From IMG/VR virus record IMGVR_UViG_3300044858_003284: a stretch of 64,000 bases of DNA, one strand, 5' to 3'. This document shows, in pieces, positions 31,921 to 56,245 of the stretch (positions are counted from its first letter, which is position 1; the number at the start of each line of letters is the position of its first letter). The stretch comes from a virus. The translations under genes and the position numbers were made by a program. The notes under the pieces were generated by a model that worked only from the letters and a program-made list of their open reading frames with translations, had not been told where the DNA came from and made no database searches.

Positions 31921-32485
31921 AATATTTAAATATGACACAGAAACAGCCGCCAAGGTTGAGGTAAAGAAACAACAATCAAAATATTTTAAATTGGTTCATG
32001 AAACTGATCCAATTTTAAGGCAAGTATTACCAGAATTCGATTTCAAGAATCCACCTGTAAATCCGGAAGAATTTGCTGAATCATTGGCTGAAACTTGTAG
32101 GCTGCATCGTGGTATTGGTCTATCTGCCAATCAATGTGGATTTCCTTATCGTGTATTTGTAATGGGTGCTGATGATCAATATGTGGCATATTTTAATCCA
32201 AAAATAACAGGACAATCCGAAGAGCAGGTACACATGGTAGAAGGGTGTTTATCTTTTCCATTTTTAGGATTGAGAATTACCAGGCCACAAGAAATTATGG
32301 TTGAATACCAAAACTATCACGGTGAAATAAAACACGCAAAATTTAATGGCATATCTGCTCGTTGTTTTCAACATGAGCTTGACCACATGAACGGTATTGT
32401 GTATACTAGTCTGACAAAGCCAATGGCTTTACAGTCTGGCATGAATAAAAGAAATAAAATTATGAGAAAGTTGAAACTCAAATAA
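31913..32485 (+). CDS. def: Peptide deformylase
   Basis: GIGLSANQCG, EGCLS, QHELDH. Confidence 0.95.
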   Translation: MSEIFKYDTETAAKVEVKKQQSKYFKLVHETDPILRQVLPEFDFKNPPVNPEEFAESLAETCRLHRGIGLSANQCGFPYRVFVMGADDQYVAYFNPKITGQSEEQVHMVEGCLSFPFLGLRITRPQEIMVEYQNYHGEIKHAKFNGISARCFQHELDHMNGIVYTSLTKPMALQSGMNKRNKIMRKLKLK

Positions 32486-33750
32486 TGGCAAGAGTAGAAC
32501 CTGTAGAAACACAATGGAAACGGTGGACAGAAGATAATCCACCAGATCGATGTCCACATATTGACGAAGAACAACTAATAAAAACTGTTACACAAGATTT
32601 AGAATATGCTTCACAAATGGATGTTCGTGAATATACTTTATATCAAAAATGGTGTGAAGTAAAAGAACGGTATCCTGGTACCGCAAGAATGAATATGTTT
32701 GGTGAACCAGACGTTGCTTGGAAAGATGATAAGCAAGCGGCAATCATCAATAAAGTCAAAAACAATATTTGGATTCCTAAAGATCCAGATGATTTTCAAA
32801 ATTTAGAACCACAAATGTATTTGGCAAATACGAATCGTGTTGATGAATGGAATGCCATAAGAACATTTTCTTCTACAATGAAAAACAATTCTAATATTGG
32901 CAGAAATCTATATTACATTGTTAAAGATAGAAAAACCGACAAGTATCTTGGTGTCATCTGTATCTCCTCAGACTTTCTGGATCTCACTCCTAGAGATAAA
33001 GCAATTGGTTGGGATCGAGATGTAAAAACTTCTCAGAACATGATTAATCATACGGCAATTGGTTCAACAATCGTGCCATTACAACCACTTGGTTTTAATT
33101 ATATGGGTGGTAAACTACTCGCATTACTGTGTCTATCAGATAAGGTTCAAAATGATTGGAAGGCAAAATATGGCGATGTGTTGGTAGGAGTCACAACTAC
33201 TTCATTGTATGGAAAAACAAAATCAGGAGGCCTTTCTCAATACGACGGACTTGAACATTGGAATGCCATGGGTTTCTCCTCAGGTTCTGTTGCCTTTGAA
33301 CCAACAAAACAAACCAAACAATTAATTTTTGATTGGATAAAAGAAAAACATCCTCGTAAATATTTTGAATGGTGGGAAGCAAAGAATCCACAAGGATTAC
33401 CACTCAAACGAGACCATAAAAATCGTTCATTACATTTTGCCTATCCAAAACTTGGTATCTCAAAAGACAAAACGAGAACAGAACACCAACGTGGTATCTA
33501 TTTTAGTTATCTCTACAATAACACTAGTGAATTCTTACGAAAAGAAATTACAGAAGATAAACTGGTAAAGGCTTTTGATACCAGTGAAGAAGCATTGACA
33601 AACATCTGGAAAACAAAGTATGCCAAAGGTCGTATTCGGCAACTACAAAAGAAAAATAATGTTTCATATGAAACACTTTTCTATGATGATTTGATTTATT
33701 TAACTTGGGAAGAAACCAAGGCAAAGTATTTGCCACAAGTTGGCAGATAA
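32485..33750 (+). CDS. DUF4338/DruA-like protein (copy 1), probable GNAT/Mom-like fold
   Basis: GRNLYYIVKD...YLGVICISS, IVPLQPLGFNYMGGKLLALL, TTTSLYG...SQY; paralogous to 55136-56245. Confidence 0.65.
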   Translation: MARVEPVETQWKRWTEDNPPDRCPHIDEEQLIKTVTQDLEYASQMDVREYTLYQKWCEVKERYPGTARMNMFGEPDVAWKDDKQAAIINKVKNNIWIPKDPDDFQNLEPQMYLANTNRVDEWNAIRTFSSTMKNNSNIGRNLYYIVKDRKTDKYLGVICISSDFLDLTPRDKAIGWDRDVKTSQNMINHTAIGSTIVPLQPLGFNYMGGKLLALLCLSDKVQNDWKAKYGDVLVGVTTTSLYGKTKSGGLSQYDGLEHWNAMGFSSGSVAFEPTKQTKQLIFDWIKEKHPRKYFEWWEAKNPQGLPLKRDHKNRSLHFAYPKLGISKDKTRTEHQRGIYFSYLYNNTSEFLRKEITEDKLVKAFDTSEEALTNIWKTKYAKGRIRQLQKKNNVSYETLFYDDLIYLTWEETKAKYLPQVGR

Positions 33751-33771
33751 CCAAGTATGCCACAAGTATAC

Positions 33772-33801
33772 TTGACATACACACATATATAATGTTATGA
33801 T
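33772..33801 (+). promoter_or_regulatory. Sigma70-type early promoter
   Basis: TTGACA-18 nt-TATGAT with extended TG; a direct repeat lies just upstream. Confidence 0.75.
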
Positions 33802-33856
33802 GTGAGAACTTGCAATACGCAAGGATTTATTTTTAACTATGATTGGAGTTTATATA

Positions 33857-34126
33857 ATGGCTAAGTTATCAGCTAAAGAGCGTATGCTCAATGTATTGAA
33901 GAAGCAAGACGGTTACAACACCTTTACAACTGCTCAAGCACAACGCCGTTTCGGCATCAGCAATGTTTCTGCTCGTATTGACGAGCTACGTCAAGAAGGA
34001 CATTGTATCTATACCAACACTCGCACCGGTACCGATGGACGTAAAGTTCGTTACTATCGTTTAGGCACACCATCTAAAGCATTGGTGCAAGCTGCCTTAC
34101 GTGCTGGATATTCTTTCACAGCCTAA
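33857..34126 (+). CDS. Small winged helix-turn-helix DNA-binding protein
   Basis: GGAG RBS; TFTTAQAQRRFGISNVSARIDELRQEG.CI helix-turn-helix plus YYRLG wing; own promoter and terminator. Confidence 0.75.
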   Translation: MAKLSAKERMLNVLKKQDGYNTFTTAQAQRRFGISNVSARIDELRQEGHCIYTNTRTGTDGRKVRYYRLGTPSKALVQAALRAGYSFTA

Positions 34127-34138
34127 TTTAAGGTTATA

Positions 34139-34169
34139 GGGGAAGTCGTTACCGGCATCCCCTTTTTTT
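34139..34169 (+). terminator. Rho-independent terminator
   Basis: GGGGAAGTCG-TTAC-CGGCATCCCC followed by T7. Confidence 0.8.
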
Positions 34170-34184
34170 ATTCTCGGAGAACAA

Positions 34185-35003
34185 ATGGAAATTTCAATAA
34201 AAAAAGAGGACTTACAAAAGAAAAGTCTATTCGTGGCCACTCCAATGTATGGTGGCATGAATCATGGCTTATACATGAAAGCGTGTTTAGATTTACAAGG
34301 CATGTGTGTTCAGTATGGCATCAATATTAAATTTTCATTTCTTTTCAACGAATCATTAATCACACGTGCACGAAATTATTTGGTGGATGAATTCATTCAC
34401 CGTTCTGATTGCACACATATGTTGTTTATTGATTCCGACATTCATTTCAATCCACAAGATGTGATCGCCTTGTTGGCCATGGATAAAGATGTTTCTGGTG
34501 GTCCATATCCTAAGAAAGCAATTAAATGGAAATCCGTAAAGACTGCAATCACAAAAAATCCTGAAATCGATCCCTCTATTTTAGAAAAAGTTACTGGTGA
34601 TTACGTGTTTAATCCAGTGAAAGGCACAGCACAGTTTAATGTTACTGAACCACTAGAAGTTTTAGAAATTGGTACAGGCTTCATGATGATTAAACGTGAT
34701 GTGTTTAAGAGAATGGAAGAAGCATATCCAATGATTCGTTATAAACCTGACCATGTAGGACAGGCACACTTTGACGGTACTCGTTACATTCATGCTTTCT
34801 TTGATACAGTTATTGATACGAAAGATAGTATTGTAGGTGGTGGTTCTGATCGTTATCTATCAGAAGATTATATGTTCTGCCAGATGTGGCGTAAGATTGG
34901 TGGCAAGATTCACCTGTGTCCTTGGATGAGAACATCACATATTGGCACGTATCACTTCCAAGGAGATATGCCTGCCGTGGCTAATTTTGTTGGAGAAATG
35001 TAA
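34185..35003 (+). CDS. GT-A fold glycosyltransferase-like protein
   Basis: LFVATPMYGG, ESLITRARN, HMLFIDSDI (DxD), GTGFMMIKR, LSEDYMFC, SHIG. Confidence 0.75.
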   Translation: MEISIKKEDLQKKSLFVATPMYGGMNHGLYMKACLDLQGMCVQYGINIKFSFLFNESLITRARNYLVDEFIHRSDCTHMLFIDSDIHFNPQDVIALLAMDKDVSGGPYPKKAIKWKSVKTAITKNPEIDPSILEKVTGDYVFNPVKGTAQFNVTEPLEVLEIGTGFMMIKRDVFKRMEEAYPMIRYKPDHVGQAHFDGTRYIHAFFDTVIDTKDSIVGGGSDRYLSEDYMFCQMWRKIGGKIHLCPWMRTSHIGTYHFQGDMPAVANFVGEM

Positions 35004-35299
35004 TGTCAGAAGTAGGTCGTAAATTTGATGGTGGTAAATTAGAATATGGTTTATTACCACCATACGCATTAAAAGAAACAGTTAAAGTATTAACTTTTGG
35101 TGCTCAAAAATATGAACGAGATAACTGGCAAAAAGTGCCAGACTCTAAACGTAGATATTTTGATGCACTACAACGGCATCTATGGGCATGGAAAGAAGGA
35201 GAAGAAGTTGATCCTGAATCTGGTATACATCACTTGGCACACGCAATGTGCTGCTTGATGTTTCTGTATGAACATGATACAATATATTCGAAGCAGTAA
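35003..35299 (+). CDS. dATP/dGTP diphosphohydrolase domain protein (DUF5664-like)
   Basis: KFDGGK...LLP, FGAQKY..DNW, ALQRHL, DPESGIHHLAHAMCC. Confidence 0.85.
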   Translation: MSEVGRKFDGGKLEYGLLPPYALKETVKVLTFGAQKYERDNWQKVPDSKRRYFDALQRHLWAWKEGEEVDPESGIHHLAHAMCCLMFLYEHDTIYSKQ

Positions 35300-35319
35300 T
35301 TTTTATAATGGAGAAAACA

Positions 35320-35991: not shown

Positions 35992-35992
35992 T

Positions 35993-36181
35993 ATGTTAGT
36001 CAATTTTAATGATAGTGTTACTAATGAATCTGTTGCCGTTAACCTGTCCAATCTTGTTTGTGTGTTTACAGTCAAAGAAGAAGGCGTTGAGAAAACCATT
36101 CTCAATATGATTAACGGTAATATTGCTGTAAAAGAAAATTACCTAGAAGTTGTTGGCAGAATCAATGCCGAAATGAAATGA
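35993..36181 (+). CDS. Small hypothetical protein (62 aa)
   Basis: GGAG RBS; MLVNFND...VKENYLEVVGRI. Confidence 0.55.
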   Translation: MLVNFNDSVTNESVAVNLSNLVCVFTVKEEGVEKTILNMINGNIAVKENYLEVVGRINAEMK

Positions 36182-38473: not shown

Positions 38474-38479
38474 TGGATG

Positions 38480-38539
38480 TAGGTGCCTCAGGGGCCTATA
38501 ATTTTGATAAACTCGCTTAACTAAGGAGCATTAAACATG
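38480..38539 (+). promoter_or_regulatory. ROSE-like RNA thermometer in hsp20 5' UTR
   Basis: CUCGCUU-aacu-AAGGAG hairpin with UCGCU and a bulged G opposite the SD; upstream hairpin UAGGUGCC...GGGCCUA. Confidence 0.65.
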
Positions 38540-39001
38540 ACTACAAGTCTATTACCAAGTCTATTTGACTTTCACAAAACGTTGGATCCATTCACAGTTG
38601 GTTACGATAAATTCTTCAAAGATATCGAAGAAGTTACCAAAAATGTAGCCAAGAATGTACCATCGTATCCTCCATACAATATCAAACAAGTAAGCAAAAA
38701 CAAGTATGTCATTGAAATGGCAGTTGCTGGTTTTGCCAAGTCTGATATTGAAATCACACTTGAAGGTAATAAATTGGTCATCAAAGGTGCTGCAAAAGAA
38801 AATGATCTTAAATCGGATGAAAACTTCCTTTTTAAGGGAATTGCTAACCGTGACTTCACACGTTCTTTTACCATCGCTGACAAGATTGAAATCGGTCAAG
38901 CTGAAATGGTAAATGGTATGTTACGTGTCTGGTTGGAAAATCTTGTGCAAACTCAAGATACCATTAAAAAGATTGCCATTAAGGAAAAGAAAGATGACTA
39001 A
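38537..39001 (+). CDS. hsp20: Small heat-shock protein Hsp20 (IbpA-like)
   Basis: SYPPYNI, IEMAVAGF, GIANRDFTRSF, NGML. Confidence 0.95.
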   Translation: MTTSLLPSLFDFHKTLDPFTVGYDKFFKDIEEVTKNVAKNVPSYPPYNIKQVSKNKYVIEMAVAGFAKSDIEITLEGNKLVIKGAAKENDLKSDENFLFKGIANRDFTRSFTIADKIEIGQAEMVNGMLRVWLENLVQTQDTIKKIAIKEKKDD

Positions 39002-39699: not shown

Positions 39700-39776
39700 G
39701 GGCCGTTAGCTCAGTTGGTTAGAGCAGAGGACTCATAATCCTTTGGTCGTAGGTTCGAGTCCTACACGGCCCACCA
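39700..39776 (+). tRNA. tRNA with CAT anticodon, Ile2 (lysidine) type
   Basis: Full cloverleaf GGGCCGT/ACGGCCC-ACCA; GAGGA-CTCATAA-TCCTT; body resembles bacterial tRNA-Ile2. Confidence 0.85.
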
Positions 39777-40832: not shown

Positions 40833-40902
40833 GCGGTCGGGGTATAGAACCAGAGTAGGTGTCCAATCTACTCACTTAGTGCGAATCTAAGCCACCGCTC
40901 CA
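40833..40902 (+). tRNA. Atypical tRNA-Gly(TCC)-like RNA, probably non-proteinogenic
   Basis: GCGGTCG/CCACCGC-T-CCA acceptor; GAGTAGG-TGTCCAA-TCTACTC anticodon arm; CTTAG-TGCGAAT-CTAAG T arm; shrunken D arm GGT-ATAGA-ACC. Confidence 0.75.
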
Positions 40903-40920: not shown

Positions 40921-41094
40921 ATGGCAGTTTCAAAAACTAAAAAGAAAAATCCAATGCTGACCAAAAATGGAAAGCCAAGATTAGGACCTTTAAACCTTAA
41001 GCAACTCAATGATATGCTAGAAAAATCTAGCAAGCCAAAAGATAAAGCAAAAATACAAAGACGGATTACAGCATTGACTTCGAAGCCGGTTTAG
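40921..41094 (+). CDS. Small basic protein (57 aa, not in ORF track)
   Basis: AAGGA RBS; MAVSKTKKKNPMLTKNGKPRLGPLN...; stop lies inside the tRNA-Thr 5' end. Confidence 0.6.
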   Translation: MAVSKTKKKNPMLTKNGKPRLGPLNLKQLNDMLEKSSKPKDKAKIQRRITALTSKPV

Positions 41095-41160
41095 CTCATT
41101 TGGTAGAGCAACTGATTTGTAATCAGTAGGTGGTCAGTTCGAATCCGACAACCGGCACCA
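41085..41160 (+). tRNA. tRNA-Thr(TGT)
   Basis: GCCGGTT/AACCGGC-ACCA; ACTGA-TTTGTAA-TCAGT; TTCGAAT T loop. Confidence 0.93.
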
Positions 41161-41766
41161 TTAACTATTTTGAGAAGAAGGATTCATAAAGTTTTCAATT
41201 AATGTTGCAACGTCACCATATTGGTAATCTTCAAGCATTTCAATTACCATATCAACTATTTGAATTTGACGTATAAAGTTTTGCAATTCATTTTCATGAT
41301 TCTTTAATTGATTCTCAGCAAACATCTTTAGTAAATTTTCACCTTGATCATTTTTCTTTTTGATTTTTTTAATTATCTTTTTTAGTCGAAATATATAACC
41401 GTTACACGTATTGATATTATTGTTTATGTTTAGTTTTTCTCGCCTACTTTCATTTTTCATGATGAGTATTAGATCATCAAGATCAGGATTAATATTTGGA
41501 AGTAGATTGAAGAATAAACGGCTGAGTTGTTCTAGAGCTTGATCACGGAGACTTGTACCAGATTCATAATGACCCGTTGTATCATATTTTTTTCTATTGA
41601 CAGGATCACTTAAAACTTCATAGGCGTTTTTTATCTCCTTGAATAATTCAGGATCGCCGCCTTTATCTGGATGATGTTGTTGAGCAAGAGATTTGTATTT
41701 GGCTTTGATTTCTTCAAATGTTGCATTTTTAGAAACGCCTAAGATATCATATAAGTTTTTATTCAT
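41161..41766 (-). CDS. DnaJ (J-domain) protein with C-terminal coiled coil
   Basis: NLYDILGV...HHPDKGG...AYEVLSDP..RKKYD; start re-called at MNKNLY. Confidence 0.88.
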   Translation of the reverse strand: MNKNLYDILGVSKNATFEEIKAKYKSLAQQHHPDKGGDPELFKEIKNAYEVLSDPVNRKKYDTTGHYESGTSLRDQALEQLSRLFFNLLPNINPDLDDLILIMKNESRREKLNINNNINTCNGYIFRLKKIIKKIKKKNDQGENLLKMFAENQLKNHENELQNFIRQIQIVDMVIEMLEDYQYGDVATLIENFMNPSSQNS

Positions 41767-41771
41767 AAATG

Positions 41772-41779
41772 TATTTATA
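41772..41779 (-). promoter_or_regulatory. Late promoter for J-domain gene (probably leaderless mRNA)
   Basis: TATAAATA on the minus strand, 5 nt before the ATG. Confidence 0.6.
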
Positions 41780-42493
41780 ATGAGCTCCATACCAAAGATT
41801 GCACACGTTGCCTGGAAGACCAAAGATGTGGTGAATAGTCAATCACCACTCATTCTTAATGGATTACGTAAACTCATTGATCTGAATCCAGATTGGACGG
41901 TCACCGTATATGATGACAATGAAATTGATGAGTATCTTAGAAACACTTTAAACAAAAGAGATTACAATCTAATTAAAGATATACATATAGTTGAAAAGAG
42001 TGACCTGTGGAGATTATTTAAGTTATACAATGAAGGTGGTCTTTACATGGACATTGATCGTTTTTATAATGTGCCGTTATCAGAAATTGTAACTGATGGT
42101 ATAAAGTGTGTATTACCAACCTGTTTAGATTGGGATTTTTCACAAGACTTTATGTTAACTGAACCAAAAAATCCTATTCAAGCACAAACGATTGAACTGA
42201 TTTTAAAGAGGCGGTATGAAGGCCATAAGAATGTTTTCTTTTTAGGACCACAAACATACATGCACGCATTGACTATGGTAATATTTGGTGAAATGATTAA
42301 TACGAATCCTGGTGTTGAGAAATTTAATGAAATGCGAAAGTACCTAGAGCAAATATCTTTTATTAAAACTTACAGAGAAAGTCCACCAAACGATACGATA
42401 GTTTATAGAGGTGAAAAAATTATTGATTGGGAAAATATAAAAAGACAATTTTACGCTGAATCGAATATTAAACATTGGTCAGGAGAATGGTAA
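41780..42493 (+). CDS. Glycosyltransferase, GT32/DXD family
   Basis: IPKIAHVAW, LNPDW, KSDLWRL..LYNEGGLYMDID, GP motif. Confidence 0.85.
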   Translation: MSSIPKIAHVAWKTKDVVNSQSPLILNGLRKLIDLNPDWTVTVYDDNEIDEYLRNTLNKRDYNLIKDIHIVEKSDLWRLFKLYNEGGLYMDIDRFYNVPLSEIVTDGIKCVLPTCLDWDFSQDFMLTEPKNPIQAQTIELILKRRYEGHKNVFFLGPQTYMHALTMVIFGEMINTNPGVEKFNEMRKYLEQISFIKTYRESPPNDTIVYRGEKIIDWENIKRQFYAESNIKHWSGEW

Positions 42494-43206
42494 TGAGAAC
42501 AATAAAGTTGCCTAGATTATTACAACCATATTATTGTTCTGATTTGATTCGAGTTGGTAAAGACAATGATGGTGGTTACCTTGTTAATAAAAGTGACATA
42601 TTGAAAAGTGAATGTTTGTTATCGTTTGGTATTAATGATGATTGGTCATTTGAAGAACAGTTTCTCAATATTAATAATTGTCCTTTGTATGGTTATGATA
42701 ATTCTGTTAATGATGAAATGCTAAAGGATAAAGGAATATACGAATCACATAAACAGTTTTTTACAGGTACAAAGCAACATATAGCAAAGAATATTGGTAA
42801 AAGAAATTCTGACGAAGAAACAACTTTCGATCAGGTTATGAAAGATAAAGGTGATAATATTTTTCTAAAGTGTGATATTGAAGGTTCTGAATATGACATA
42901 CTAGATAATATAATTATACACACAAAGAAATTTTCTGGCATCGTAATAGAGTTTCATGATATACAAGAAAATTACAAGTTAAATGAAATGGCCAACTTTG
43001 TTAGTAAACTAGACCAAAAGTTGGTTCACGTTCATATAAACAACTACACATATACACAAGTAGGTCAAAATGAATTCATACCGTCTGTTGTTGAATTGAC
43101 TTTTACATCATCAGAAAATATAAAGTTAAAGAAACACATTACTTTTCCTAATTCTTTAGACATGCCAAACTGTCCAGAAAGAGAAGATTTTACCATAATA
43201 TTTTGA
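42493..43206 (+). CDS. FkbM-like methyltransferase
   Basis: RVGKDNDGGY, SFGINDDWSFE, LKCDIEGSEY, IEFH, HVHINN. Confidence 0.8.
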   Translation: MRTIKLPRLLQPYYCSDLIRVGKDNDGGYLVNKSDILKSECLLSFGINDDWSFEEQFLNINNCPLYGYDNSVNDEMLKDKGIYESHKQFFTGTKQHIAKNIGKRNSDEETTFDQVMKDKGDNIFLKCDIEGSEYDILDNIIIHTKKFSGIVIEFHDIQENYKLNEMANFVSKLDQKLVHVHINNYTYTQVGQNEFIPSVVELTFTSSENIKLKKHITFPNSLDMPNCPEREDFTIIF

Positions 43207-43296
43207 CGAAAGGTTGGAGATGTCGGAGCCTCCGAAAATTTTCCGGCGATTTCAAGGTTTCAAATTTTGTTTTTTGATTTTAAGATATATAGTTAT

Positions 43297-43371
43297 AGCG
43301 GGGTAGCTCAGAGGTAGAGCATTGGACTCATAATCCAGGGGCCGTAGGTTCGATTCCTTCCCCCGCAACCA
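43297..43371 (+). tRNA. tRNA-Met(CAT) with initiator-like acceptor stem
   Basis: AGCGGGG/CCCCGCA-ACCA (1:72 mismatch); TTGGA-CTCATAA-TCCAG; TTCGATT T loop. Confidence 0.85.
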
Positions 43372-43384
43372 ACAAGGAGATATT

Positions 43385-43507
43385 ATGACTGAACCAAAAA
43401 AGCCAGCAGTGATTTTACCTAAGCCAAAAACACCATCAGCACCAAAACCAAAACAAACTTTTATTCCTAAGATGACAGTAATGCGAAAGGCAGGCAGAGG
43501 CAGATGA
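43385..43507 (+). CDS. Small Pro/Lys-rich protein (40 aa)
   Basis: AAGGAG RBS; MTEPKKPAVILPKPKTPSAPKPK...GRGR*. Confidence 0.55.
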   Translation: MTEPKKPAVILPKPKTPSAPKPKQTFIPKMTVMRKAGRGR

Positions 43508-43662
43508 CATCCGATTTAGAGAAATATCGTAAACAAGCTATGGAGTTGTGGTTCAGTAATGGTGGTAGTTGCACTGGTGCCACACCGCCAGAGCCAAAAG
43601 ATATTGATGATGCTATTGCTGAAGATGAAGAATTTAAGCGAATAGAGCAACAACAAAAATAA
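43504..43662 (+). CDS. Small hypothetical protein (52 aa)
   Basis: ATGA overlap; MTSDLEKYRKQAMELWF...EQQQK*. Confidence 0.55.
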   Translation: MTSDLEKYRKQAMELWFSNGGSCTGATPPEPKDIDDAIAEDEEFKRIEQQQK

Positions 43663-44364
43663 TTATTTGAGTTTTGCTAGTTTAAGTTTTTCTAATACTT
43701 TGATATAGAACCAACCTATATCTAACTCGAACCATTTCCTACTAAGCTTGGCAGAACCAGCATCAGAATGGTGATTATTATGAAGCTCTTCGCCACCAAT
43801 AATAATACCAATAGGGAAAATATTTCTAGATGATTCTCTCGTTTCAACATTTCTATACCCCCAATAGTGACCGATTCCGTTGACAACACCTGCAGCCCAA
43901 AACGGAATCCATAACATCTGTATTAACCAAACTAATATACCCCAATAACCAAACAAAGCAAAACAAACTAAAAAGTATATTGAAACACCCAAGTAATTTA
44001 AAGGTGTATACAAATTCTTTTCAATAAAATCTTCTGGTGTTCCTCTACCAAATGAATTAATCATCAATTTATCTTTTGCAGCTGTATTGTATAGGAGTGC
44101 ACCACCAAATAAAACTTTCCATATACCAAATAATTGAGGTGAATGTGGATCACCTTTTTGGTCTGTCATGCTATGGTGTTTACGGTGAATTGCTACCCAT
44201 TCTTTTGTGACCATACCTGTCGTTAACCATAACCAGAATCGAAAGAAGTGATTTACTACTGGATGAAATGATACAGATAGATGTGTTTGACTACGATGAA
44301 GATACAGAGTTACGGCGATAATTGTTAGATGAGTTGTTACTAGGACATAGAATAGTTCGTTCAT
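43663..44364 (-). CDS. Delta-9-type fatty acid desaturase
   Basis: His boxes HRSQTH, HRKHH, HNNHH; DPHSP; transmembrane segments. Confidence 0.92.
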   Translation of the reverse strand: MNELFYVLVTTHLTIIAVTLYLHRSQTHLSVSFHPVVNHFFRFWLWLTTGMVTKEWVAIHRKHHSMTDQKGDPHSPQLFGIWKVLFGGALLYNTAAKDKLMINSFGRGTPEDFIEKNLYTPLNYLGVSIYFLVCFALFGYWGILVWLIQMLWIPFWAAGVVNGIGHYWGYRNVETRESSRNIFPIGIIIGGEELHNNHHSDAGSAKLSRKWFELDIGWFYIKVLEKLKLAKLK

Positions 44365-44448
44365 TTGTATAATTTATGAGTGTGTGTGGAAGAAACCAAT
44401 ATCTGAGTATAAGATATACCCAAAAGTCTATTGGATTTGTTATTAACA

Positions 44449-44622
44449 TTACTTATTTAGGTCTTTATAACTGTGTCTACCACAAGTTCTTAAATACTCA
44501 TTTTTACCTTTACTGTTCATATTTTTAGCGGAATAAATTTGAGCAAAATGATTACATCCTCTGACTTGACAAGGTGGAGGTATATCTAAAACAGAAGTGT
44601 TTGCTGTGTTATTTGTTGGCAT
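44449..44622 (-). CDS. Small Cys/His putative Zn-binding protein (57 aa)
   Basis: MPTNN...PPCQVRGCNHFAQ...RTCGRH...K*. Confidence 0.5.
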   Translation of the reverse strand: MPTNNTANTSVLDIPPPCQVRGCNHFAQIYSAKNMNSKGKNEYLRTCGRHSYKDLNK

Positions 44623-44689
44623 ATTCAGCCCACATTAAAAACATTAACAAAACAATTGTTATGATAAAAATTAATGGTTGATCTCTCAT
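44609..44689 (-). CDS. Possible 26-aa single-TM peptide
   Basis: MRDQPLIFIITIVLLMFLMWAEYANK*, ATGA-coupled to the upstream gene. Confidence 0.4.
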   Translation of the reverse strand: MRDQPLIFIITIVLLMFLMWAEYANK

Positions 44690-45126
44690 TTGTATAGTTT
44701 AAAAAAATAAGTTACTAATGCAGCCACAGTTAGACACCACCAAAAAACTCTAGTCATTTTATATCTATCACTATCCATGAATTCCATTTCTTCATCATGT
44801 TCTTTTTTCAATCTCGCTTTGACGGATTCGATTTCAGACCAAGCATTTTTACCATATTTTTGAGTTGCTTCTATTTTTAGTTTATCAATTTCTTTTTGAT
44901 GTCTTTTTTCTGCTTCATATTTTTCAAATGCTTTAAAATCCTGTGATGCTCGCATTAATTCTTGTTGAGCTTTAGTTTGCATCCTTTTACGGTGCTGTTC
45001 CTGAACGGCTCTTTCCATATCGGCTTGTTGGTCAGTAACAACACCACCCAACTGTTTGCCAATATTTTGTGCTTCTTTAAGAGTATTGACTGCAGCTTTA
45101 CCTGCGGCTAAATCAACATTTGACAT
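44686..45126 (-). CDS. Coiled-coil protein with C-terminal TM anchor
   Basis: Helical charged body; VFWWCLTVAALVTYFF. Confidence 0.7.
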   Translation of the reverse strand: MSNVDLAAGKAAVNTLKEAQNIGKQLGGVVTDQQADMERAVQEQHRKRMQTKAQQELMRASQDFKAFEKYEAEKRHQKEIDKLKIEATQKYGKNAWSEIESVKARLKKEHDEEMEFMDSDRYKMTRVFWWCLTVAALVTYFFKLYK

Positions 45127-45590
45127 TATTTGGCCAATGGATTGTCCATTGCTTTCTGAATCTTACTATCAATTTCTTTACGCAAAACACGAATGTCTTG
45201 GTCAATTTCACGGGATAATTGTTTATTGTCCCGTTCTACTTGCTCAACAATCTTTTCCAATTTACGAATATCGTTTTTGATATCGTTCTTAATATCACGG
45301 GTATAATCATTCGTCTTGGCAGATGTTTCTTCTACCACAATTAACCGTTTATCAAACTCAGATAAATCTGGTGCAACATATTTTTCAATCTTCATCTTCA
45401 TATCTTGGTATGATTTGTATACTTCAAATGCACCATAAAGAGCACCAAGTGTAGAAGATACGATTGTAAATGCCACCATAAGTTTGGCAGGAGTAAATTC
45501 GTAGCCACCAATACTGATAACAGTATCTTTACTGGCATATTTCTTAACCGCTGCTTCTGCTTCGTCTATTTTTTTATTAACGTCTGTCAT
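45126..45590 (-). CDS. Single-TM coiled-coil protein
   Basis: LMVAFTIVSSTLGALYGAF TM followed by heptads, ending NPLAK. Confidence 0.72.
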   Translation of the reverse strand: MTDVNKKIDEAEAAVKKYASKDTVISIGGYEFTPAKLMVAFTIVSSTLGALYGAFEVYKSYQDMKMKIEKYVAPDLSEFDKRLIVVEETSAKTNDYTRDIKNDIKNDIRKLEKIVEQVERDNKQLSREIDQDIRVLRKEIDSKIQKAMDNPLAK

Positions 45591-45591
45591 T

Positions 45592-47670
45592 TTATTTTCC
45601 TAATTCGAATTGTGATTGAACCATTTGATTATGTAATTGATCGGTCGCACCAAATAATCTACGACCAGCTCTTGCATTATCTACATTCTTTTGGCCACCG
45701 TAAATGGTAAACGGTTTATAAAAAGAAACATCTTTAATAATAACACTATTATAAGCATCAAATGCAGGACTAAATCCCATTGCTGCAATAACTAAACCTT
45801 GTGTTGCAACTTGAGCATTCATTGATTTTGCTTCACCACTTTCTTTAACGGCTTCAGAACCTTTTGCAACCGCTTCTCTCTTTGCAGCTTCAACTCTGGC
45901 TTGTTGTAAAGTTTGTCGAGGTGACTGTGTTGTGGTAGAAGAACTAGAACTAGATGAACTTGTTGAAGAAGAACTGCTAGTTGAAGAAGAACTAGAACTA
46001 GATGAACTCTGTACCGATTCAACCACCAAAGCTGTCGTTGTTTGTTGTGAAGATGATGGTGATGTTAATTGCACTGGTGCCGCTGGCGCTGTCGGTGCAG
46101 TAGATGTTGATGTTGTTGTTACCACTCTATTAACATTCGGATCAGCCACAATCGCTGGAGTATTACTCACAGAACCAGAAGAAGATACAACTATCGCTTC
46201 TGTGGTTGTATTATTATTTGTTGTATTATTTGAATTTGCAACTGGTGCCACATAACCAGAGCAAGTGGGACTGGATTGTGGATTGGCTGTGCAAGCTTGA
46301 TTACGTAGATATGCTTGATAAGCAGTTTCGTAACCAGGACATTGTGGACTATACAAAGTATTCAAAGAACATTGTTGATTAAAATATGCTTGTTGATAAC
46401 CAGGACACTCACTATTATATAAAGGATTGGCCGTGCATTGTTGATTAAAATATGCTTGTTGATATCCTGGACATCCAGAATTATATAAAGGATTTGCGGT
46501 ACATTGTTGTGTAAAATAAGCCTGTTGATATCCTGGACAAGATGAGTTATATAATGGATCTTGTGTGCAACGAAAACTAAAATATGCTTGTTGATAACCA
46601 GGACATTGTGGACTATACAATGCACTTAATGAACATTGTTGATTAAAATATGCTTGTTGGTAACCAGGACAAGATGAGTTATATAATGGATCAGCGGTAC
46701 ATTGTTGATTAAAATATGCTTGTTGGTAACCAGGACAAGATGAGTTATATAATGGATCAGCGGTACATTGTTGATTAAAATATGCTTGTTGGTAACCAGG
46801 ACAAGATGAGTTATATAAAGAATTCGAATTACATTGTTGTGTAAAATAAGCTTCTTGATAACCAGGACATGATGAATCATATAAAGCATTAATACTGCAT
46901 TGTTGTGCAGTATAAGCAGCTGCGTAACCAGGACATGAAGGTGAATAAAGTGGATTGATTGTGCATTGATCAACTCCAGGTCCTGTTCCACCAAGTGCTT
47001 GCCAACTAAAAATACTAGAACTTCCTGGTGTAATATTTAATCCTTGGCCATGGTAATATTGATAATATTCACCTTTACTTAAATCGCCAGCTACACCAGA
47101 TGTTACGGCATTCCAAGATATCATAGCACCAGCAATACGAGTGTCTATAAGACCTGATGAATTAATTTTTATTTCAAAACTATTACCGCCTTGTGAACCA
47201 CAACATTGACTAACATTATACCAACCATATGTCATACTATTACCTTCACGAAGATAATATTGATTTTGATCATTCCATGAATATAAATCAGTATGTAATC
47301 CATAAATTGTATAATTATACGATGGATTTGTGGTGTTTCTTAAATCTACACCAGAACAACATCCACCACCTAAACCAGATGTTTGTGGATTTTGAAATGT
47401 TACAAATCCATTTGTTGCAGCCCAAGATGTTGTGAAGTTTTGGCCAAACATTGGAAATGTAAAACCTAAAGGAACTTCATTATACCAATCATCACCAGTT
47501 GTAATGTTTACTGCGTTTGGATTATTTTTAATATCTTGTAGTGGTAAAGCATTGACGCCTGTTCCAACTGTCATATTAAGACCTGGAGTTCCAGGTATTG
47601 GAATAGTAACTATTTGAGCGAAAGAGCAAGCAGACACCACAAAAAGTAGTGCTGCTAAAATCTTTTTCAT
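45592..47670 (-). CDS. Secreted protein: signal peptide, NIDO-like domain, 22-aa Cys repeats, Ser/Thr linker
   Basis: MKKILAALLFVVSACSFA; VPLGFTFPMFGQNF...ATNGFVTF; C..xPLY...CPGYQQAYFxQQ repeated about 11 times. Confidence 0.8.
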   Translation of the reverse strand: MKKILAALLFVVSACSFAQIVTIPIPGTPGLNMTVGTGVNALPLQDIKNNPNAVNITTGDDWYNEVPLGFTFPMFGQNFTTSWAATNGFVTFQNPQTSGLGGGCCSGVDLRNTTNPSYNYTIYGLHTDLYSWNDQNQYYLREGNSMTYGWYNVSQCCGSQGGNSFEIKINSSGLIDTRIAGAMISWNAVTSGVAGDLSKGEYYQYYHGQGLNITPGSSSIFSWQALGGTGPGVDQCTINPLYSPSCPGYAAAYTAQQCSINALYDSSCPGYQEAYFTQQCNSNSLYNSSCPGYQQAYFNQQCTADPLYNSSCPGYQQAYFNQQCTADPLYNSSCPGYQQAYFNQQCSLSALYSPQCPGYQQAYFSFRCTQDPLYNSSCPGYQQAYFTQQCTANPLYNSGCPGYQQAYFNQQCTANPLYNSECPGYQQAYFNQQCSLNTLYSPQCPGYETAYQAYLRNQACTANPQSSPTCSGYVAPVANSNNTTNNNTTTEAIVVSSSGSVSNTPAIVADPNVNRVVTTTSTSTAPTAPAAPVQLTSPSSSQQTTTALVVESVQSSSSSSSSSTSSSSSTSSSSSSSSTTTQSPRQTLQQARVEAAKREAVAKGSEAVKESGEAKSMNAQVATQGLVIAAMGFSPAFDAYNSVIIKDVSFYKPFTIYGGQKNVDNARAGRRLFGATDQLHNQMVQSQFELGK
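46252..46965 (-). repeat. 66-nt tandem repeat array (10 full + 1 partial units)
   Basis: Units at 46633 and 46699 are nucleotide-identical and the match extends into the unit at 46765. Confidence 0.92.
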
Positions 47671-48146
47671 TAGTCTTTACTCTTTATTTTCTGTGGTTGG
47701 CGGTCTGGATTTGCTTCCCAAACCACTTTAGCTTCGTTACCAATTTTACCATCAACTGGACATGGAGTACCTGCATTCATCATAGCGGTAAATACACGCT
47801 CGTCTTGGCAAAGAGTAGAAACAGCAGCTACTTTCATACCCATATCATAAAGAGTTTTGGATAACTTTAAACGTTCACAATTCTTATCGATAAAAGTACC
47901 ACCAATGGCGATACCAAGAATTTGAGTTTGAGCTGCACCTGAAACACCCACAGCACACAAGTCATTATTCAATGATGTGATATTTGGTGCCACAGCGGTT
48001 GGAGGTGGAGATTTAATAGTTGTGGTACTATTGGAGGTGGAATCCGAGGTACTTCTGGTTGTGGAATCCGTCACAATAGGTTGAGCAAATACGTTGCCAA
48101 CAAATAACATTACTGTTATAATTGGAAATATCTTACTTTTTAACAT
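47670..48146 (-). CDS. Secreted Cys-containing protein
   Basis: Signal peptide ending ..GNVFA; 4 Cys (DLC, NCERLKLS, LCQDERVF, TPCP). Confidence 0.75.
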   Translation of the reverse strand: MLKSKIFPIITVMLFVGNVFAQPIVTDSTTRSTSDSTSNSTTTIKSPPPTAVAPNITSLNNDLCAVGVSGAAQTQILGIAIGGTFIDKNCERLKLSKTLYDMGMKVAAVSTLCQDERVFTAMMNAGTPCPVDGKIGNEAKVVWEANPDRQPQKIKSKD

Positions 48147-52143: not shown

Positions 52144-52154
52144 AAAGGAAAATT

Positions 52155-53231
52155 ATGAGTATTCTTGATAAGATTAAAAAGAACAGTAGCATTAAAGAAT
52201 CAGCAATTCTTTCAAAGTCAAAGTTCTTTACTGATAAAGATATGATACCAACGGCAATTCCCATTATCAATGTGGCATTGTCTGGCAAACTAGATGGTGG
52301 ACTAACACCAGGTCTTACAATGTGGGCTGGTCCATCTAAACATTTTAAAACAGCCTTCAGTTTACTGATGGCAAAATCTTATTTGGACAAATATGAAGAT
52401 GCGGCTCTTTTATTCTACGATAGTGAGTTTGGTACTCCTCAAAGCTATTTTGACAGTTTCGGCATCGATACTGAGCGTGTATTGCACACTCCCCTTACAG
52501 ATATCGAACAGCTCAAATTCGACATTATGCAGCAGCTTACGAACCTTGATAGGGGTGACCGATTAATTATCGTCATTGATTCGATTGGTAATTTGGCATC
52601 AAAGAAAGAAGTTGAAGATGCACTCGAAGGCAAATCAGTTGCTGATATGTCCCGTGCCAAACAAGTTAAATCATTGTTTCGTATGGTGACACCACATCTC
52701 ACGATGAAAGATGTGCCAATGATTGTTGTGAACCATACTTACAAAGAAATTGGTATGTTCCCTAAAGATATCGTTGGTGGTGGTACAGGTTCATATTACT
52801 CTGCCGATAATATTTTTATTATTGGCCGCCAACAAGAAAAAGAAGGCACAGAAGTTGTTGGTTACAATTTTATAATTAATGTAGAAAAAAGTCGTTATGT
52901 CAAAGAAAAATCTAAAATTCCCGTTACTGTATCTTTTGATGGTGGCATTAGTAAGTGGAGCGGTCTACTTGATATTGCAATCGAATCTGGTCATGTGGTT
53001 AAGCCATCCAATGGTTGGTATAGTCAGGTAGATGAGAACGGTGAAATCCAAGAAAAGAAATATCGTATCAAAGATACTGATACTAAAGAATTCTGGTTGC
53101 CAATTATAAAGCAGAAATCATTCCAAGAGTTCATTAAGAACAAATATCAAATTGCATCCGGTAGTATTATGCGAGAAGATGTTGAGGAAGCTTTTGAAGT
53201 TGAAACTATGAATGGAACTGAAGATGAGTAA
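52155..53231 (+). CDS. uvsX: RecA-like recombinase UvsX
   Basis: AGPSKHFKT, YDSEFG, VIDSIGNLAS, GGTGSYYSAD. Confidence 0.97.
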   Translation: MSILDKIKKNSSIKESAILSKSKFFTDKDMIPTAIPIINVALSGKLDGGLTPGLTMWAGPSKHFKTAFSLLMAKSYLDKYEDAALLFYDSEFGTPQSYFDSFGIDTERVLHTPLTDIEQLKFDIMQQLTNLDRGDRLIIVIDSIGNLASKKEVEDALEGKSVADMSRAKQVKSLFRMVTPHLTMKDVPMIVVNHTYKEIGMFPKDIVGGGTGSYYSADNIFIIGRQQEKEGTEVVGYNFIINVEKSRYVKEKSKIPVTVSFDGGISKWSGLLDIAIESGHVVKPSNGWYSQVDENGEIQEKKYRIKDTDTKEFWLPIIKQKSFQEFIKNKYQIASGSIMREDVEEAFEVETMNGTEDE

Positions 53232-53475
53232 TGAAGAAGCTAAAGTAAAACATAGCAAACGAATTTACCAAAAAAAGAATACAGTAGAAAAAAAAGTTAA
53301 ATTAGCCAAAGCCTACAAATGGACTGATGCACTAAAACAACCACATCGGTATTTGAAATGCTCATTGTTCAGTTGTGGTAATAAACATTGTATATTCTGT
53401 GGTAATCCAAGAAAAATTTGGAAAGAAGATACGATACAAGAGAAACGTCAAAAACAGAAGGTGAATGATGATTGA
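53224..53475 (+). CDS. Small basic Cys-containing protein
   Basis: CGNKHCIFCGNPRK motif; start re-called at MSNEE. Confidence 0.6.
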   Translation: MSNEEAKVKHSKRIYQKKNTVEKKVKLAKAYKWTDALKQPHRYLKCSLFSCGNKHCIFCGNPRKIWKEDTIQEKRQKQKVNDD

Positions 53476-53791
53476 GGGAATAGATTATTGTTTCATTTAT
53501 CCAAAGAATGATGAAACTGCGGTACACATTAAATTCTTAGAAGGACCATACAAGAATACCGTATTCAAATATGGTAAGGTAAAATTTAAAGAAGAAGATC
53601 AGCAAGTGTATTTACTTTTTGCCTATGATGTGATAGAATCTCCAGTAGATAAGCCAAAGAAATTGGAAAAAGATATTGACTTTAAAAATTACATTGGCAA
53701 TTTATTAGTGGAAATTATGGGTAGTAACATTGAACAGGAAATAGTAGATGAAGCTGGAACAAACGATATTAAAGAATCTGATTTACAATGA
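53465..53791 (+). CDS. Hypothetical protein in the gp40 position
   Basis: Lies between uvsX and gp41, as T4 gp40 does. Confidence 0.55.
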   Translation: MMIEGIDYCFIYPKNDETAVHIKFLEGPYKNTVFKYGKVKFKEEDQQVYLLFAYDVIESPVDKPKKLEKDIDFKNYIGNLLVEIMGSNIEQEIVDEAGTNDIKESDLQ

Positions 53792-55139
53792 AGATTATTT
53801 ACGAAAAGTATTACCATTTCTAAAGACTGAATATTTTTCTGATAGTGTTGAAAGAACCTTATTCAATGAAATCACATCATTCACAGAAACTTACAATAGT
53901 TCACCATCTATTGAAGCGCTCAGTATTGCCGTCAAAGAAAAAAGAAATCTCACAGCTGACGAGGTGCAGAGAGCAGAAGATTATCTGGAAGAAATTACAA
54001 AGCATAAAGAAGAAACTTCCGAGATACAATGGCTTGTTGATAAATCGGAAAAGTTCTGCCAAGAAAAAGCCATTTATAACGCTGTATTGGGGAGTATCTC
54101 CATTCTGGACGGGAAAGATAGAAATCACGACAAAGGACAAATTCCCAAGATTTTGTCCGATGCTCTTGCAGTAAGTTTTGATAACTCAGTAGGTCACGAT
54201 TATTTACAGGACTCAGATGCTCGATATGAATTCTATCACAGAAAAGAGGAAAGAATACCTTTTGACTTGGACTACTTTAACAAAATCACAAAAGGTGGTT
54301 TACCTGCTAAGACACTCAATGTCGCTCTTGCTGGCACTGGTGTTGGCAAATCTCTTTTTATGTGTCATGTGGCTGCTGGCTGTATGGTTCAAGGCAAGAA
54401 TGTTCTTTACATCACTTTGGAAATGAGTGAAGAAAAGATTGCAGAACGAATCGATGCTAATCTATTGAATGTAACAATTGATGATTTGATGGACTTGCCA
54501 AAGGATATGTATGATAAGAAAGTGGCGAGAGTTCGTGAAAAGACTACAGGCAAATTAATCATCAAAGAATATCCAACGGCATCCGCATCAACTATTCATT
54601 TTCGGACACTATTGAATGAACTTAATCTCAAAAGGTCTTTTGTACCTGACATTATATTTGTTGACTATCTTAATATTTGTTGTAGTGCTCGTATTAAAGC
54701 TGGTGCGAATATTAATTCCTACACCTACGTTAAAGCAATTGCAGAAGAATTACGTGGCCTTGCTGTTGAGTTTAATGTTCCTATTGTATCTGCTACACAG
54801 ACTACCCGTTCAGGATTTACATCAAGTGATCCAGGACTTGAAGATACGTCTGAATCATTCGGACTTCCCGCCACCGCAGACTTGATGTTTGCTTTGATTT
54901 CTTCAGAAGAACTAGAAGAACTTGGTCAAATCATGGTCAAACAATTGAAGAATCGATATAATGATCCAACATACCACAAACGATTCACTCTTGGTGTTGA
55001 CCGTGCCAAAATGAAACTGTATGATGTTGAACAGGCCGCACAAATGGGTATTGCAGATGCTGGCCATGATAAACCTTTAAACACATTTGGTACAAGAGAA
55101 GAACGACCAAAGAAATCATTTAGTGGATTCAAAGTATGA
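53748..55139 (+). CDS. gp41: Replicative helicase gp41 (DnaB-like)
   Basis: AGTGVGKS, YITLEMSE, IKEYPT, VDYLNI, KQLKNRY. Confidence 0.97.
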   Translation: MKLEQTILKNLIYNEDYLRKVLPFLKTEYFSDSVERTLFNEITSFTETYNSSPSIEALSIAVKEKRNLTADEVQRAEDYLEEITKHKEETSEIQWLVDKSEKFCQEKAIYNAVLGSISILDGKDRNHDKGQIPKILSDALAVSFDNSVGHDYLQDSDARYEFYHRKEERIPFDLDYFNKITKGGLPAKTLNVALAGTGVGKSLFMCHVAAGCMVQGKNVLYITLEMSEEKIAERIDANLLNVTIDDLMDLPKDMYDKKVARVREKTTGKLIIKEYPTASASTIHFRTLLNELNLKRSFVPDIIFVDYLNICCSARIKAGANINSYTYVKAIAEELRGLAVEFNVPIVSATQTTRSGFTSSDPGLEDTSESFGLPATADLMFALISSEELEELGQIMVKQLKNRYNDPTYHKRFTLGVDRAKMKLYDVEQAAQMGIADAGHDKPLNTFGTREERPKKSFSGFKV

Positions 55140-56245
55140 TATTGACTAGAGACCAAGCACTTCATTGTGCTGGTGTATTTAAAGACTACTTCAGTAATCT
55201 AGGAAGTACCGAAGAATACATGCGTGATGAGAAACTAAAAGATATTGATAATCGACCATTTTCATTGTTTCCAATTGAAGATGATTTGTTCTCCGATTTC
55301 TCAATGCACCCAAACGATATGGATATTGAAGTATGTGAAATACCAAATGAAACATGGGAATCATTACTTGCCATTACCTCATCTCACATCAACAAAGCAC
55401 CAGTTGGTAAGAATATACAATTGGCAGTCAGAGAACGGAACTCAGGAAAGATTCTAGGTTTCATTCGTTTAGGTTCACCAGTGATCTATATGAAACCAAG
55501 AAATGAACTCTTGGGGCAAGTTTGGATTCAAAACGAGAACACCGCCAAGCGGTTTAATACTGCTTGTGTGATGGGTTTCGTAATTGTACCATCTCAACCA
55601 TTTGGTTTTAACTATTTGGGTGGTAAGTTATTATCTGCCATTTGTACCAGTCATACCGTAAGAGAAATGTGTAATAAAAAATATGACATGAATGTGTGCC
55701 TATTTGAAACTACCAGTTTGTATGGTAGCACAAAAACGGTATCACAATATGATGGCATGAAACCATATATTCGTTTTAGGGGATTGACCGAATCGGATAT
55801 CGTACCTATGATGCACGGACAAAGATATCAAGATTTGAAAAACTATGTCGAGAATATCACTGGTGATTTACTCGGTGGTGACACATCTACAACCAGTAGA
55901 AAGTTGAGAACATTTACCAAGATTATTGCTCTCACAAAAGCTGCATTGAAAGGTAGTTCCGAAGGTAAAGAGTTTGTAGAGACCATCGATAATGCCAAGA
56001 AATTAACAGAGAAGAAAAGATACTATACATCCGATTATGGTTTTAAAAATTCAATCGATTACATGAATTGTAAGACCGATAAACTTTTACCAGGTGAAAA
56101 TTACGAGAAACATGAACTACAAAATGTGATTGAATGGTGGCGTGGAAAAGCTATAAATAGATATGAAACCCTTAAAGCTGAGGGTAGATTACGAACAGAA
56201 CTTGAAGTATGGACTTCAGGAAAAGACATTCAAATTATTAGATAA
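55136..56245 (+). CDS. DUF4338/DruA-like protein (copy 2), probable GNAT/Mom-like fold
   Basis: GKNIQLAVRE...ILGFIRLGS, IVPSQPFGFNYLGGKLL, ETTSLYG...SQYDGM; coupled to gp41. Confidence 0.65.
   Translation: MILTRDQALHCAGVFKDYFSNLGSTEEYMRDEKLKDIDNRPFSLFPIEDDLFSDFSMHPNDMDIEVCEIPNETWESLLAITSSHINKAPVGKNIQLAVRERNSGKILGFIRLGSPVIYMKPRNELLGQVWIQNENTAKRFNTACVMGFVIVPSQPFGFNYLGGKLLSAICTSHTVREMCNKKYDMNVCLFETTSLYGSTKTVSQYDGMKPYIRFRGLTESDIVPMMHGQRYQDLKNYVENITGDLLGGDTSTTSRKLRTFTKIIALTKAALKGSSEGKEFVETIDNAKKLTEKKRYYTSDYGFKNSIDYMNCKTDKLLPGENYEKHELQNVIEWWRGKAINRYETLKAEGRLRTELEVWTSGKDIQIIR

What the first reader, a model, noticed from the sequence alone, without database searches (positions are those of the whole stretch)
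32485..56245. Candidate new system: two DUF4338/DruA-like (Mom-like GNAT) paralogues plus a non-ribosomal tRNA-Gly, possibly tRNA-dependent DNA hypermodification
Seen: ORFs 32485-33750 and 55136-56245 are clear paralogues. Matching motifs are GRNLYYIVKD..YLGVICISS / GKNIQLAVRE..ILGFIRLGS, TPRDKAIG / KPRNELLG, IVPLQPLGFNYMGGKLL / IVPSQPFGFNYLGGKLL, and TTSLYG..SQYDGL / TTSLYG..SQYDGM. Both sit in DNA replication operons, one ATGA-coupled to the gp41 helicase and one in the gp46-gp45 interval. Inference: the motif order (beta hairpin, GGKLL helix, beta strand, SQY..W..MG) resembles GNAT/Mom-family acyltransferases. Established: Mu Mom is a GNAT that makes a glycinamide adduct on adenine N6; from memory it was reported to use Gly-tRNA-Gly as donor (verify). 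DUF4338 is otherwise known as DruA of the Druantia defence system, of unknown biochemistry. Hypothesis: the phage encodes its own EF-Tu-evading Gly-tRNA and two transferases to modify DNA or another substrate. This would also suggest a biochemical role for DruA.
Basis: inference. Interest (0 to 1): 0.85.

Follow-up and report, generated by a model that had tools for sequence, protein, structure and literature searches.

The report
Phage acyltransferase pair with private tRNA-Gly
A T4-like phage carries two DruA-family enzymes shaped like phage Mu's DNA-modifying enzyme Mom, plus a shrunken glycine tRNA that looks chargeable but unfit for the ribosome; the three travel and vanish together in relatives, which points to an untested system that brings its own activated glycine to modify phage DNA.

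Summary
Observation confirmed. ORFs 32485-33750 and 55136-56245 are DruA/DUF4338 paralogues. Both AlphaFold models are GNAT folds whose top PDB match is Mu Mom (Z 9.4 and 9.9, tied with other GNATs; no significant sequence similarity, and Mom's catalytic residues are not seen). Its fold covaries across relatives. In 24 IMG/VR contigs it lies 21-139 nt behind the first paralogue's orthologue (probably one origin). Related UGC tRNA-Gly genes abut true Mom genes in 77 of 96 loci. One relative lost the tRNA, kept only a stump of paralogue 2 and has a TET-associated glycosyltransferase in place of paralogue 1. Against: one complete genome and cultured cyanophages have the enzymes with only ordinary tRNA-Gly; no biochemistry exists. 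Best reading: Gly-tRNA-dependent DNA modification (about 0.6). The scan found this pairing before in other genomes; I found no paper describing it.

The parts
32485..33750 (+). DruA/DUF4338-family GNAT-fold protein, paralogue 1 (421 aa); the type that the short tRNA-Gly follows directly in relatives
   Evidence: Pfam PF14236 E 3e-20; model pLDDT 94.7; top match Mom 8bv8 Z 9.4, rmsd 4.1, 173 aligned; adjacency in relatives
55136..56245 (+). DruA/DUF4338-family GNAT-fold protein, paralogue 2 (369 aa), ATGA-coupled to gp41 helicase; orthologues sit among replisome genes in cultured cyano- and pelagiphages
   Evidence: PF14236 E 5e-8; model pLDDT 88; top match Mom 8bv8 Z 9.9, rmsd 4.0, 170 aligned; contexts
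40833..40902 (+). Atypical 70-nt tRNA-Gly(UCC): G1-C72, C2-G71, G3-C70, U73, encoded CCA; 3-bp D stem without GG and without the 8/9 linker; extended anticodon stem; G33; UGC T loop; U51-A63
   Evidence: fold; conservation; covariation of the family; pair tallies; CM score
40796..40824 (+). Near-consensus sigma-70 promoter 8 nt upstream of the tRNA
   Evidence: TTGACA-17-TACAAT, 11 of 12 matches, extended -10 TG; conserved in relatives
56248..57588 (+). Uncharacterised 446-aa ORF directly behind paralogue 2; possible partner nuclease (lead only)
   Evidence: phrog_1462 unknown; nearest named Atlas clusters are HpaII/HaeIII-type endonucleases at 0.85-0.86, below the reliable range; absent from its place in the relative that lost the system

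Best explanation
The phage transcribes a dedicated tRNA-Gly from its own early-type promoter. Host GlyRS charges it (inferred from intact identity elements), EF-Tu and the ribosome largely ignore it (inferred from weak T-stem pairs, G33, loss of D/T-loop motifs and a free first anticodon base), so Gly-tRNA accumulates as an activated glycine donor. One or both DruA-family GNAT enzymes, made with the replication genes, transfer the glycyl group to an exocyclic amine of newly replicated phage DNA, as Mom does at adenine N6, shielding the genome from host nucleases. Shown here: fold, tRNA anatomy, linkage, joint loss. Inferred: charging, donor use, DNA as acceptor, purpose. The tRNA is an accessory; ordinary tRNA-Gly can probably serve, as it does for Mom.
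For: GNAT fold with Mom first among 48,161 chains for both models, aligned over about 170 of 202 Mom residues, more than for the other top rows. tRNA 21-139 nt downstream, same strand, of paralogue-1 orthologues in 24 contigs, often as a tandem pair; 8 and 14 nt from paralogue-2-type genes in two further lineages. 22 of 27 gene-anchored loci with 9.5 kb downstream hold the short tRNA, and three more contigs hold it further on. UGC-loop tRNA-Gly genes abut or overlap true Mom genes in 77 of 96 loci. DruA-like and Mom genes never shared a contig among those searched for both. Joint loss: in contig G058 paralogue 1 is replaced by a TAGT glycosyltransferase (PF20691, E 5e-45), paralogue 2 is a 118-aa C-terminal stump and no short tRNA is found. 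Anticodon varies to ACC in relatives, HTVC008M and Mosig while C35-C36 stay. A-U/U-A at 51-63 in 39 of 40 variants against G-C/C-G in 35 of 47 ordinary phage tRNA-Gly, as in staphylococcal non-proteogenic tRNA-Gly (PMC7826273). ParB and UDG-like fusions in distant members point to DNA.
Against: No significant profile similarity to Mom (E 0.04, probability 1%); Mom's R111 and S124 have no evident counterpart. Mom's Z lead over ordinary acetyl-CoA GNATs is under 1, so tied. The family's invariant QP-x-G-x-N-x-x-GGK loop falls where GNAT motif A binds CoA (own knowledge). Complete genome G007 has both paralogues but only ordinary tRNA-Gly; cultured cyanophages with paralogue 2 have ordinary tRNA-Gly or none. 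Four distant members have no such tRNA nearby. Adjacency behind paralogue 1 is syntenic and may have arisen once. The joint loss is one lineage on a 38-kb fragment. No expression or modification data.
Confidence: 0.6

Rival explanations
1. Same donor, other acceptor: the enzymes use the dedicated Gly-tRNA to glycylate a protein, a nucleotide precursor or a cell-surface or virion component, in the manner of Fem, L/F or MprF transferases.
For: Gene-tRNA linkage says nothing about the acceptor; FemA is among the structural matches (Z 8.2 and 8.6); Mom's catalytic residues are not recognisable; paralogue 1 is coupled to a peptide deformylase.
Against: Placement among replisome genes in many phages, exchange with a TAGT glycosyltransferase at the same site, ParB/UDG fusions, Mom as top fold match.
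Confidence: 0.15
2. Acyl-CoA-dependent GNATs: the proteins acetylate DNA, a protein or the amino group of charged tRNA (TacT/AtaT-like), and the odd tRNA is a substrate, decoy or regulator rather than a donor.
For: Conserved glycine-rich loop with invariant K210 at the motif-A position; acetyl-CoA GNATs tie with Mom in both fold searches; enzymes occur without the special tRNA.
Against: The same class of tRNA sits beside true Mom genes, whose donor is known to be Gly-tRNA; the tRNA keeps every charging determinant while losing decoding features.
Confidence: 0.13
3. Independent passengers: the RNA is a decoy or stress-response tRNA mimic (against tRNA-cleaving defences, or to occupy GlyRS) that hitchhikes with a gene of unrelated function.
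For: Probable single origin of adjacency in the paralogue-1 clade; 7 kb separation in this window; some full-length UGC tRNA-Gly genes occur in complete genomes with neither enzyme.
Against: Separate adjacency to paralogue-2 genes and to Mom genes in unrelated phages; joint loss in G058; the short class was not found in any long contig lacking the gene.
Confidence: 0.12

Closest known systems
Phage Mu Mom (PDB 8bv8; phrog_1384), Gly-tRNA-Gly-dependent adenine N6 modifier (PMC13219725)
   Same: GNAT fold, top structural match for both paralogues, helical insertion before the last strand, phage-encoded; Mom homologues are flanked by the same kind of UGC-loop tRNA-Gly.
   Different: No significant sequence similarity; different invariant residues; 370-420 aa against about 240; two paralogues; Mu uses host tRNA-Gly of any isoacceptor, whereas this phage encodes a dedicated one.
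DruA (DUF4338, PF14236) of Druantia type I; GNAT domain fused to DndF (PMC10853773)
   Same: Same Pfam and PADLOC family above cut-off.
   Different: Stand-alone in a phage replication module; no DruE-sized helicase in the window; linked to a tRNA; biochemistry of DruA itself unknown.
Staphylococcal non-proteogenic tRNA-Gly with FmhB/FemA/FemB (PMC7826273)
   Same: Dedicated tRNA-Gly with intact GlyRS identity and weak EF-Tu T-stem pairs feeding a GNAT-fold transferase.
   Different: Those are full-size chromosomal tRNAs for peptidoglycan bridges; this is a 65-70-nt phage RNA with a 3-bp D arm, G33 and a variable anticodon.

Membership tests
DruA/DUF4338 domain family (PF14236) | Profile score above the gathering cut-off | tested here: met
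   72.9 and 33 bits against 27; 110 of 110 aligned relatives match
GNAT superfamily | GNAT core fold | tested here: met
   Confident models; the listed VIA rows are GNAT-fold chains almost throughout, Z 8-10; Foldseek rows agree but with E > 0.001
Mom family | Detectable sequence or profile similarity to Mom | tested here: not met
   No phrog_1384 or 8bv8 hit; Mom HMM finds nothing in the window; hhalign E 0.04-0.08, probability about 1%
Mom family | Catalytic R111, S124, D149, Y159 | tested here: inconclusive
   Conserved in the Mom alignment; the weak profile alignment shows no R111 or S124 counterpart, Y253 may match Y159; no residue-level superposition was available
Mom family | Helical insertion between the last two core strands | tested here: met
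   Helices 275-322 in model 1 and 228-288 in model 2 lie between the last strands; the aligned range spans Mom 20-232
Mom family | Glycyl transfer from Gly-tRNA to adenine N6 in dsDNA | not testable with these tools
   Needs biochemistry
Druantia type I system | druA in an operon with druB-D and the large DruE helicase | tested here: not met
   Neighbours are T4-like replication genes; the longest ORF in the window is the 844-aa polymerase; the rest of the genome is not held
tRNA-Gly, chargeable by GlyRS | G1-C72, C2-G71, U73, C35, C36, CCA end | tested here: met
   All present in the window and in relatives found from the gene side; determinants from PMC7826273
Canonical elongator tRNA (RF00005) | D-loop GG, U33, T-loop UUC, Rfam score above 29 bits | tested here: not met
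   No Rfam or ARAGORN call; GG absent in 40 of 40 variants, G33 in 30 of 40
Non-proteogenic tRNA-Gly (functional class) | Weak EF-Tu binding when charged | tested here: inconclusive
   Sequence proxy met (U51-A63; 39 of 40 variants weak at 51-63); binding not measured

The most novel reading that the evidence does not exclude
Phages widely encode dedicated non-ribosomal tRNA-Gly genes as private glycine donors for DNA hypermodification, for two sequence-unrelated GNAT families (Mom and DruA/DUF4338); the DruA family is a second class of tRNA-dependent DNA aminoacyltransferases, the two paralogues here may modify different bases or sites, and Druantia's DruA may be a self-marking enzyme of the same kind.
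Probability: 0.5. Interest if true: 0.92.

Novelty: new variant of a known kind. Interest (0 to 1): 0.78.

Why it matters
Only one enzyme, Mom, is known to modify DNA with a charged tRNA, and it borrows host tRNA. A second family with thousands of members in abundant aquatic T4-like phages (3,608 and 6,300 homologues), carrying its own ribosome-evading tRNA, would add a probable new DNA modification and a class of phage tRNAs that standard annotation misses. It gives DUF4338/DruA a directly testable activity, and cultured phages (HTVC008M, Mosig, S-SM2, S-SSM7, S-CAM9) make the test immediate.

Tried and rejected
ARAGORN and Rfam miss the RNA; relaxed ARAGORN was noise. PDB sequence searches with the protein and its profile found nothing meaningful. 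Profile-profile comparison to Mom was not significant. Foldseek gave no match at E <= 0.001 for either model. Two viral scans with distant members found nothing. Ordinary tRNA-Gly in cyanophages is uninformative: it occurs with and without the gene. Iyer et al. 2013 on Mom-like GNATs was not retrievable; it may already group this family with DNA-modifying GNATs. Literature searches found no paper linking Mom or DruA genes to phage tRNA-Gly. No complex prediction was run: each paralogue occurs alone in cultured phages, so a heterodimer is not claimed. The tree is a quick IQ-TREE run without bootstrap. Bias: acceptor, UCC and UGC bases were imposed in the pattern scans, so their conservation counts only where hits came from gene-anchored loci.
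Full report
Setting. The window is part of a T4-like phage genome (head, portal, gp46/47, gp45/44/62, gp43, UvsX, gp41). No whole genome is held. The nearest cultured phage with both genes is Pelagibacter phage HTVC008M; the host of this phage is unknown.

The two proteins. ORFs 32485-33750 and 55136-56245 are open and paralogous (35% over 142 aa, E 2e-26). Both belong to Pfam DruA/DUF4338, phrog_19197 and PADLOC DruA1. Paralogue 1 follows a peptide deformylase in the gp46-gp45 interval; paralogue 2 overlaps the gp41 stop. In cultured phages paralogue-2 orthologues move between replisome positions: after gp43 in HTVC008M, between gp44 and gp62 in most cyanophages. One GenBank record already labels it 'methylcarbamoylase mom', without stated evidence. 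The two types form separate, well supported groups, and each occurs alone in some cultured phages.

Fold. Models are confident (pLDDT 94.7 and 88). Against 48,161 PDB representatives Mom (8bv8) ranks first for both: Z 9.4, rmsd 4.1, 173 aligned, and Z 9.9, rmsd 4.0, 170 aligned; acetyl-CoA GNATs follow within 1 Z and are formally tied. Both models have a helical insertion before the last strand, where Mom has its essential HTH-like insertion. Sequence does not connect the families, and the invariant residues differ: R140, R170, Q200-P201, G208-G209-K210, T238-T239-S240, Y253, R336. So: GNAT shown, Mom-like in architecture, not a Mom family member. DUF4338 was called a GNAT before (PMC10853773). 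Mom's donor is confirmed as Gly-tRNA-Gly, any host isoacceptor (PMC13219725).

The tRNA. It lies at 40833-40902, missed by ARAGORN and Rfam. It folds as a cloverleaf (z -2.7) behind a near-consensus sigma-70 promoter (11 of 12). It keeps G1-C72, C2-G71, U73, C35, C36 and CCA, the GlyRS determinants, but has a 3-bp D stem with no GG, G at 33, a UGC T loop and U51-A63. In 23 diverse relatives 93% of cells pair and 16 of 22 pairs show changes on both sides, above all 500 shuffles and all slid controls. 39 of 40 variants have a weak pair at 51-63, against G-C/C-G in 35 of 47 ordinary phage tRNA-Gly; staphylococcal non-proteogenic tRNA-Gly use A51-U63 to escape EF-Tu. Relatives found from the gene side have anticodon ACC, as do the odd tRNA-Gly genes of HTVC008M and Mosig: the base GlyRS ignores is free, which fits selection for charging and not for decoding (inference). 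Some phages keep an ordinary tRNA-Gly directly beside it.

Linkage. A scan of IMG/VR for the tRNA pattern, blind to protein genes, returned this class 21-139 nt behind a paralogue-1 gene, same strand, in 24 contigs, often as tandem pairs, and full-length UGC tRNA-Gly 8 or 14 nt from paralogue-2 genes in two lineages. None of the ordinary tRNA-Gly from the looser scan lay within 1 kb of such a gene. The adjacent proteins are 58-98% identical and syntenic, and the window's clade is nested among them, so adjacency is probably ancestral, arose once, and the tRNA later moved 7 kb here. From the gene side, 22 of 27 loci with enough flank hold the short tRNA, and three more contigs hold it further away. 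A second scan, one base longer, found UGC tRNA-Gly with a bulged T stem: 77 of 96 loci encode a true Mom homologue (phrog_1384 E 8e-50; 8bv8 E 1e-14), nearly always abutting or overlapping the tRNA; about ten of the other 19 look like chance pattern matches. Thus the same kind of tRNA accompanies an enzyme family whose donor is known. Mom and DruA-like genes did not co-occur in the contigs searched for both, though lineage confounds this.

A natural deletion. Among 49 gp45-anchored relatives covering the site, only L512 and L515 (one lineage) lack paralogue 1. There a TET-associated glycosyltransferase (PF20691, E 5e-45) and a small ORF occupy the slot; this family is tied to phage DNA hypermodification (own knowledge; one search lists related papers). 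In the same contig paralogue 2 is a 118-aa C-terminal stump behind gp41, the next two ORFs are gone, and no short tRNA is found although the tRNA region is covered. This suggests that both genes and the tRNA act as one unit, exchangeable for another DNA-modification enzyme. It is a single event on a 38-kb fragment. ParB fusions (235-member Atlas cluster) and a UDG-like fusion in distant members also point to DNA.

Limits. Complete genome G007 has both paralogues and only ordinary tRNA-Gly(GCC) and (UCC). Cyanophages with paralogue 2 alone have ordinary tRNA-Gly or none. Four distant members show no such tRNA nearby. Some full-length UGC tRNA-Gly occur in complete genomes with neither enzyme. 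The special tRNA is therefore an accessory, as Mom's use of host tRNA would predict. Nothing here shows expression, charging, transfer or a modified base.

Verdict. The features are real and linked. Most likely (0.6) a Gly-tRNA-dependent DNA-modification system that works like Mom but is built from the DruA family and supplies its own non-ribosomal donor. Rivals: another acceptor (0.15), acyl-CoA chemistry with the RNA as substrate or decoy (0.13), hitchhiking (0.12). Earlier agents of this scan reached similar readings on other genomes; these are not independent evidence and were read after my reading was formed. New variant of a known kind; interest 0.78.

Noticed in passing
L218:2959-3711, L208, L234, L246, L282, L289 and about 60 more of L199-L294: The atypical tRNA-Gly is nested in frame inside the Mom open reading frame, mostly at its 5' end (often with an upstream ATG and no later start), sometimes at its 3' end; tRNA processing would cut the mom mRNA. 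Possibly a regulatory or dual-coding arrangement.
   Followed up: partly
L270:887-3744: One short atypical tRNA-Gly followed by four tandem Mom homologues; L297 has two tRNA-Mom units in tandem.
   Followed up: no
L515:5393-6638: TAGT glycosyltransferase plus a 116-aa ORF replace paralogue 1 at the syntenic site.
   Followed up: yes
L551:1335-3445: gp41 helicase of contig G058 appears to carry an intein-like insertion and is split by a frame break; a stump of paralogue 2 follows.
   Followed up: partly
KC465899.1:91140-91213 (L434:6606-6679); MT647606.1:7779-7852: Odd tRNA-Gly with anticodon ACC in cultured pelagiphages HTVC008M (not annotated in the record) and Mosig.
   Followed up: partly
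L388, L399, L312, L220, L290: tRNA-Gly with a UGC T loop in complete or near-complete viral genomes with neither Mom nor DruA-like gene detected; partner unknown.
   Followed up: partly
window 56248-57588: 446-aa phrog_1462 protein behind paralogue 2; weak Atlas lead to restriction endonucleases; lost with the system in G058.
   Followed up: partly
window 33760-33800: Promoter-like motif right after paralogue 1 resembles, by eye, the one before the tRNA; in relatives the tRNA sits at this spot.
   Followed up: no
window 35003-35299 and 34185-35003: dATP/dGTP diphosphohydrolase N-terminal domain (PF18909, E 2e-36) and a conserved glycosyltransferase-like gene (phrog_1574) between paralogue 1 and gp45.
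   Followed up: no
window 31375-32485: Heme oxygenase and peptide deformylase genes upstream of paralogue 1.
   Followed up: no
window 38477-38542: Weak ROSE_3 thermometer match (26.7 bits, below gathering score) at the start of the hsp20 gene.
   Followed up: no
window 39700-39776, 41085-41160, 43297-43371: Two tRNA(CAU) genes, the second with an unpaired first position (initiator-like), and one tRNA-Thr.
   Followed up: no
window 41161-48146 (minus strand) and 58349-63644: DnaJ-domain gene, desaturase-like gene and a four-gene minus-strand cluster of membrane or exported proteins; a glycosyltransferase/epimerase/methyltransferase cluster after the helicase region.
   Followed up: no
L316:2023-2163: A further, even more reduced tRNA-like 3' end lies between the gene and the short tRNA-Gly.
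   Followed up: no
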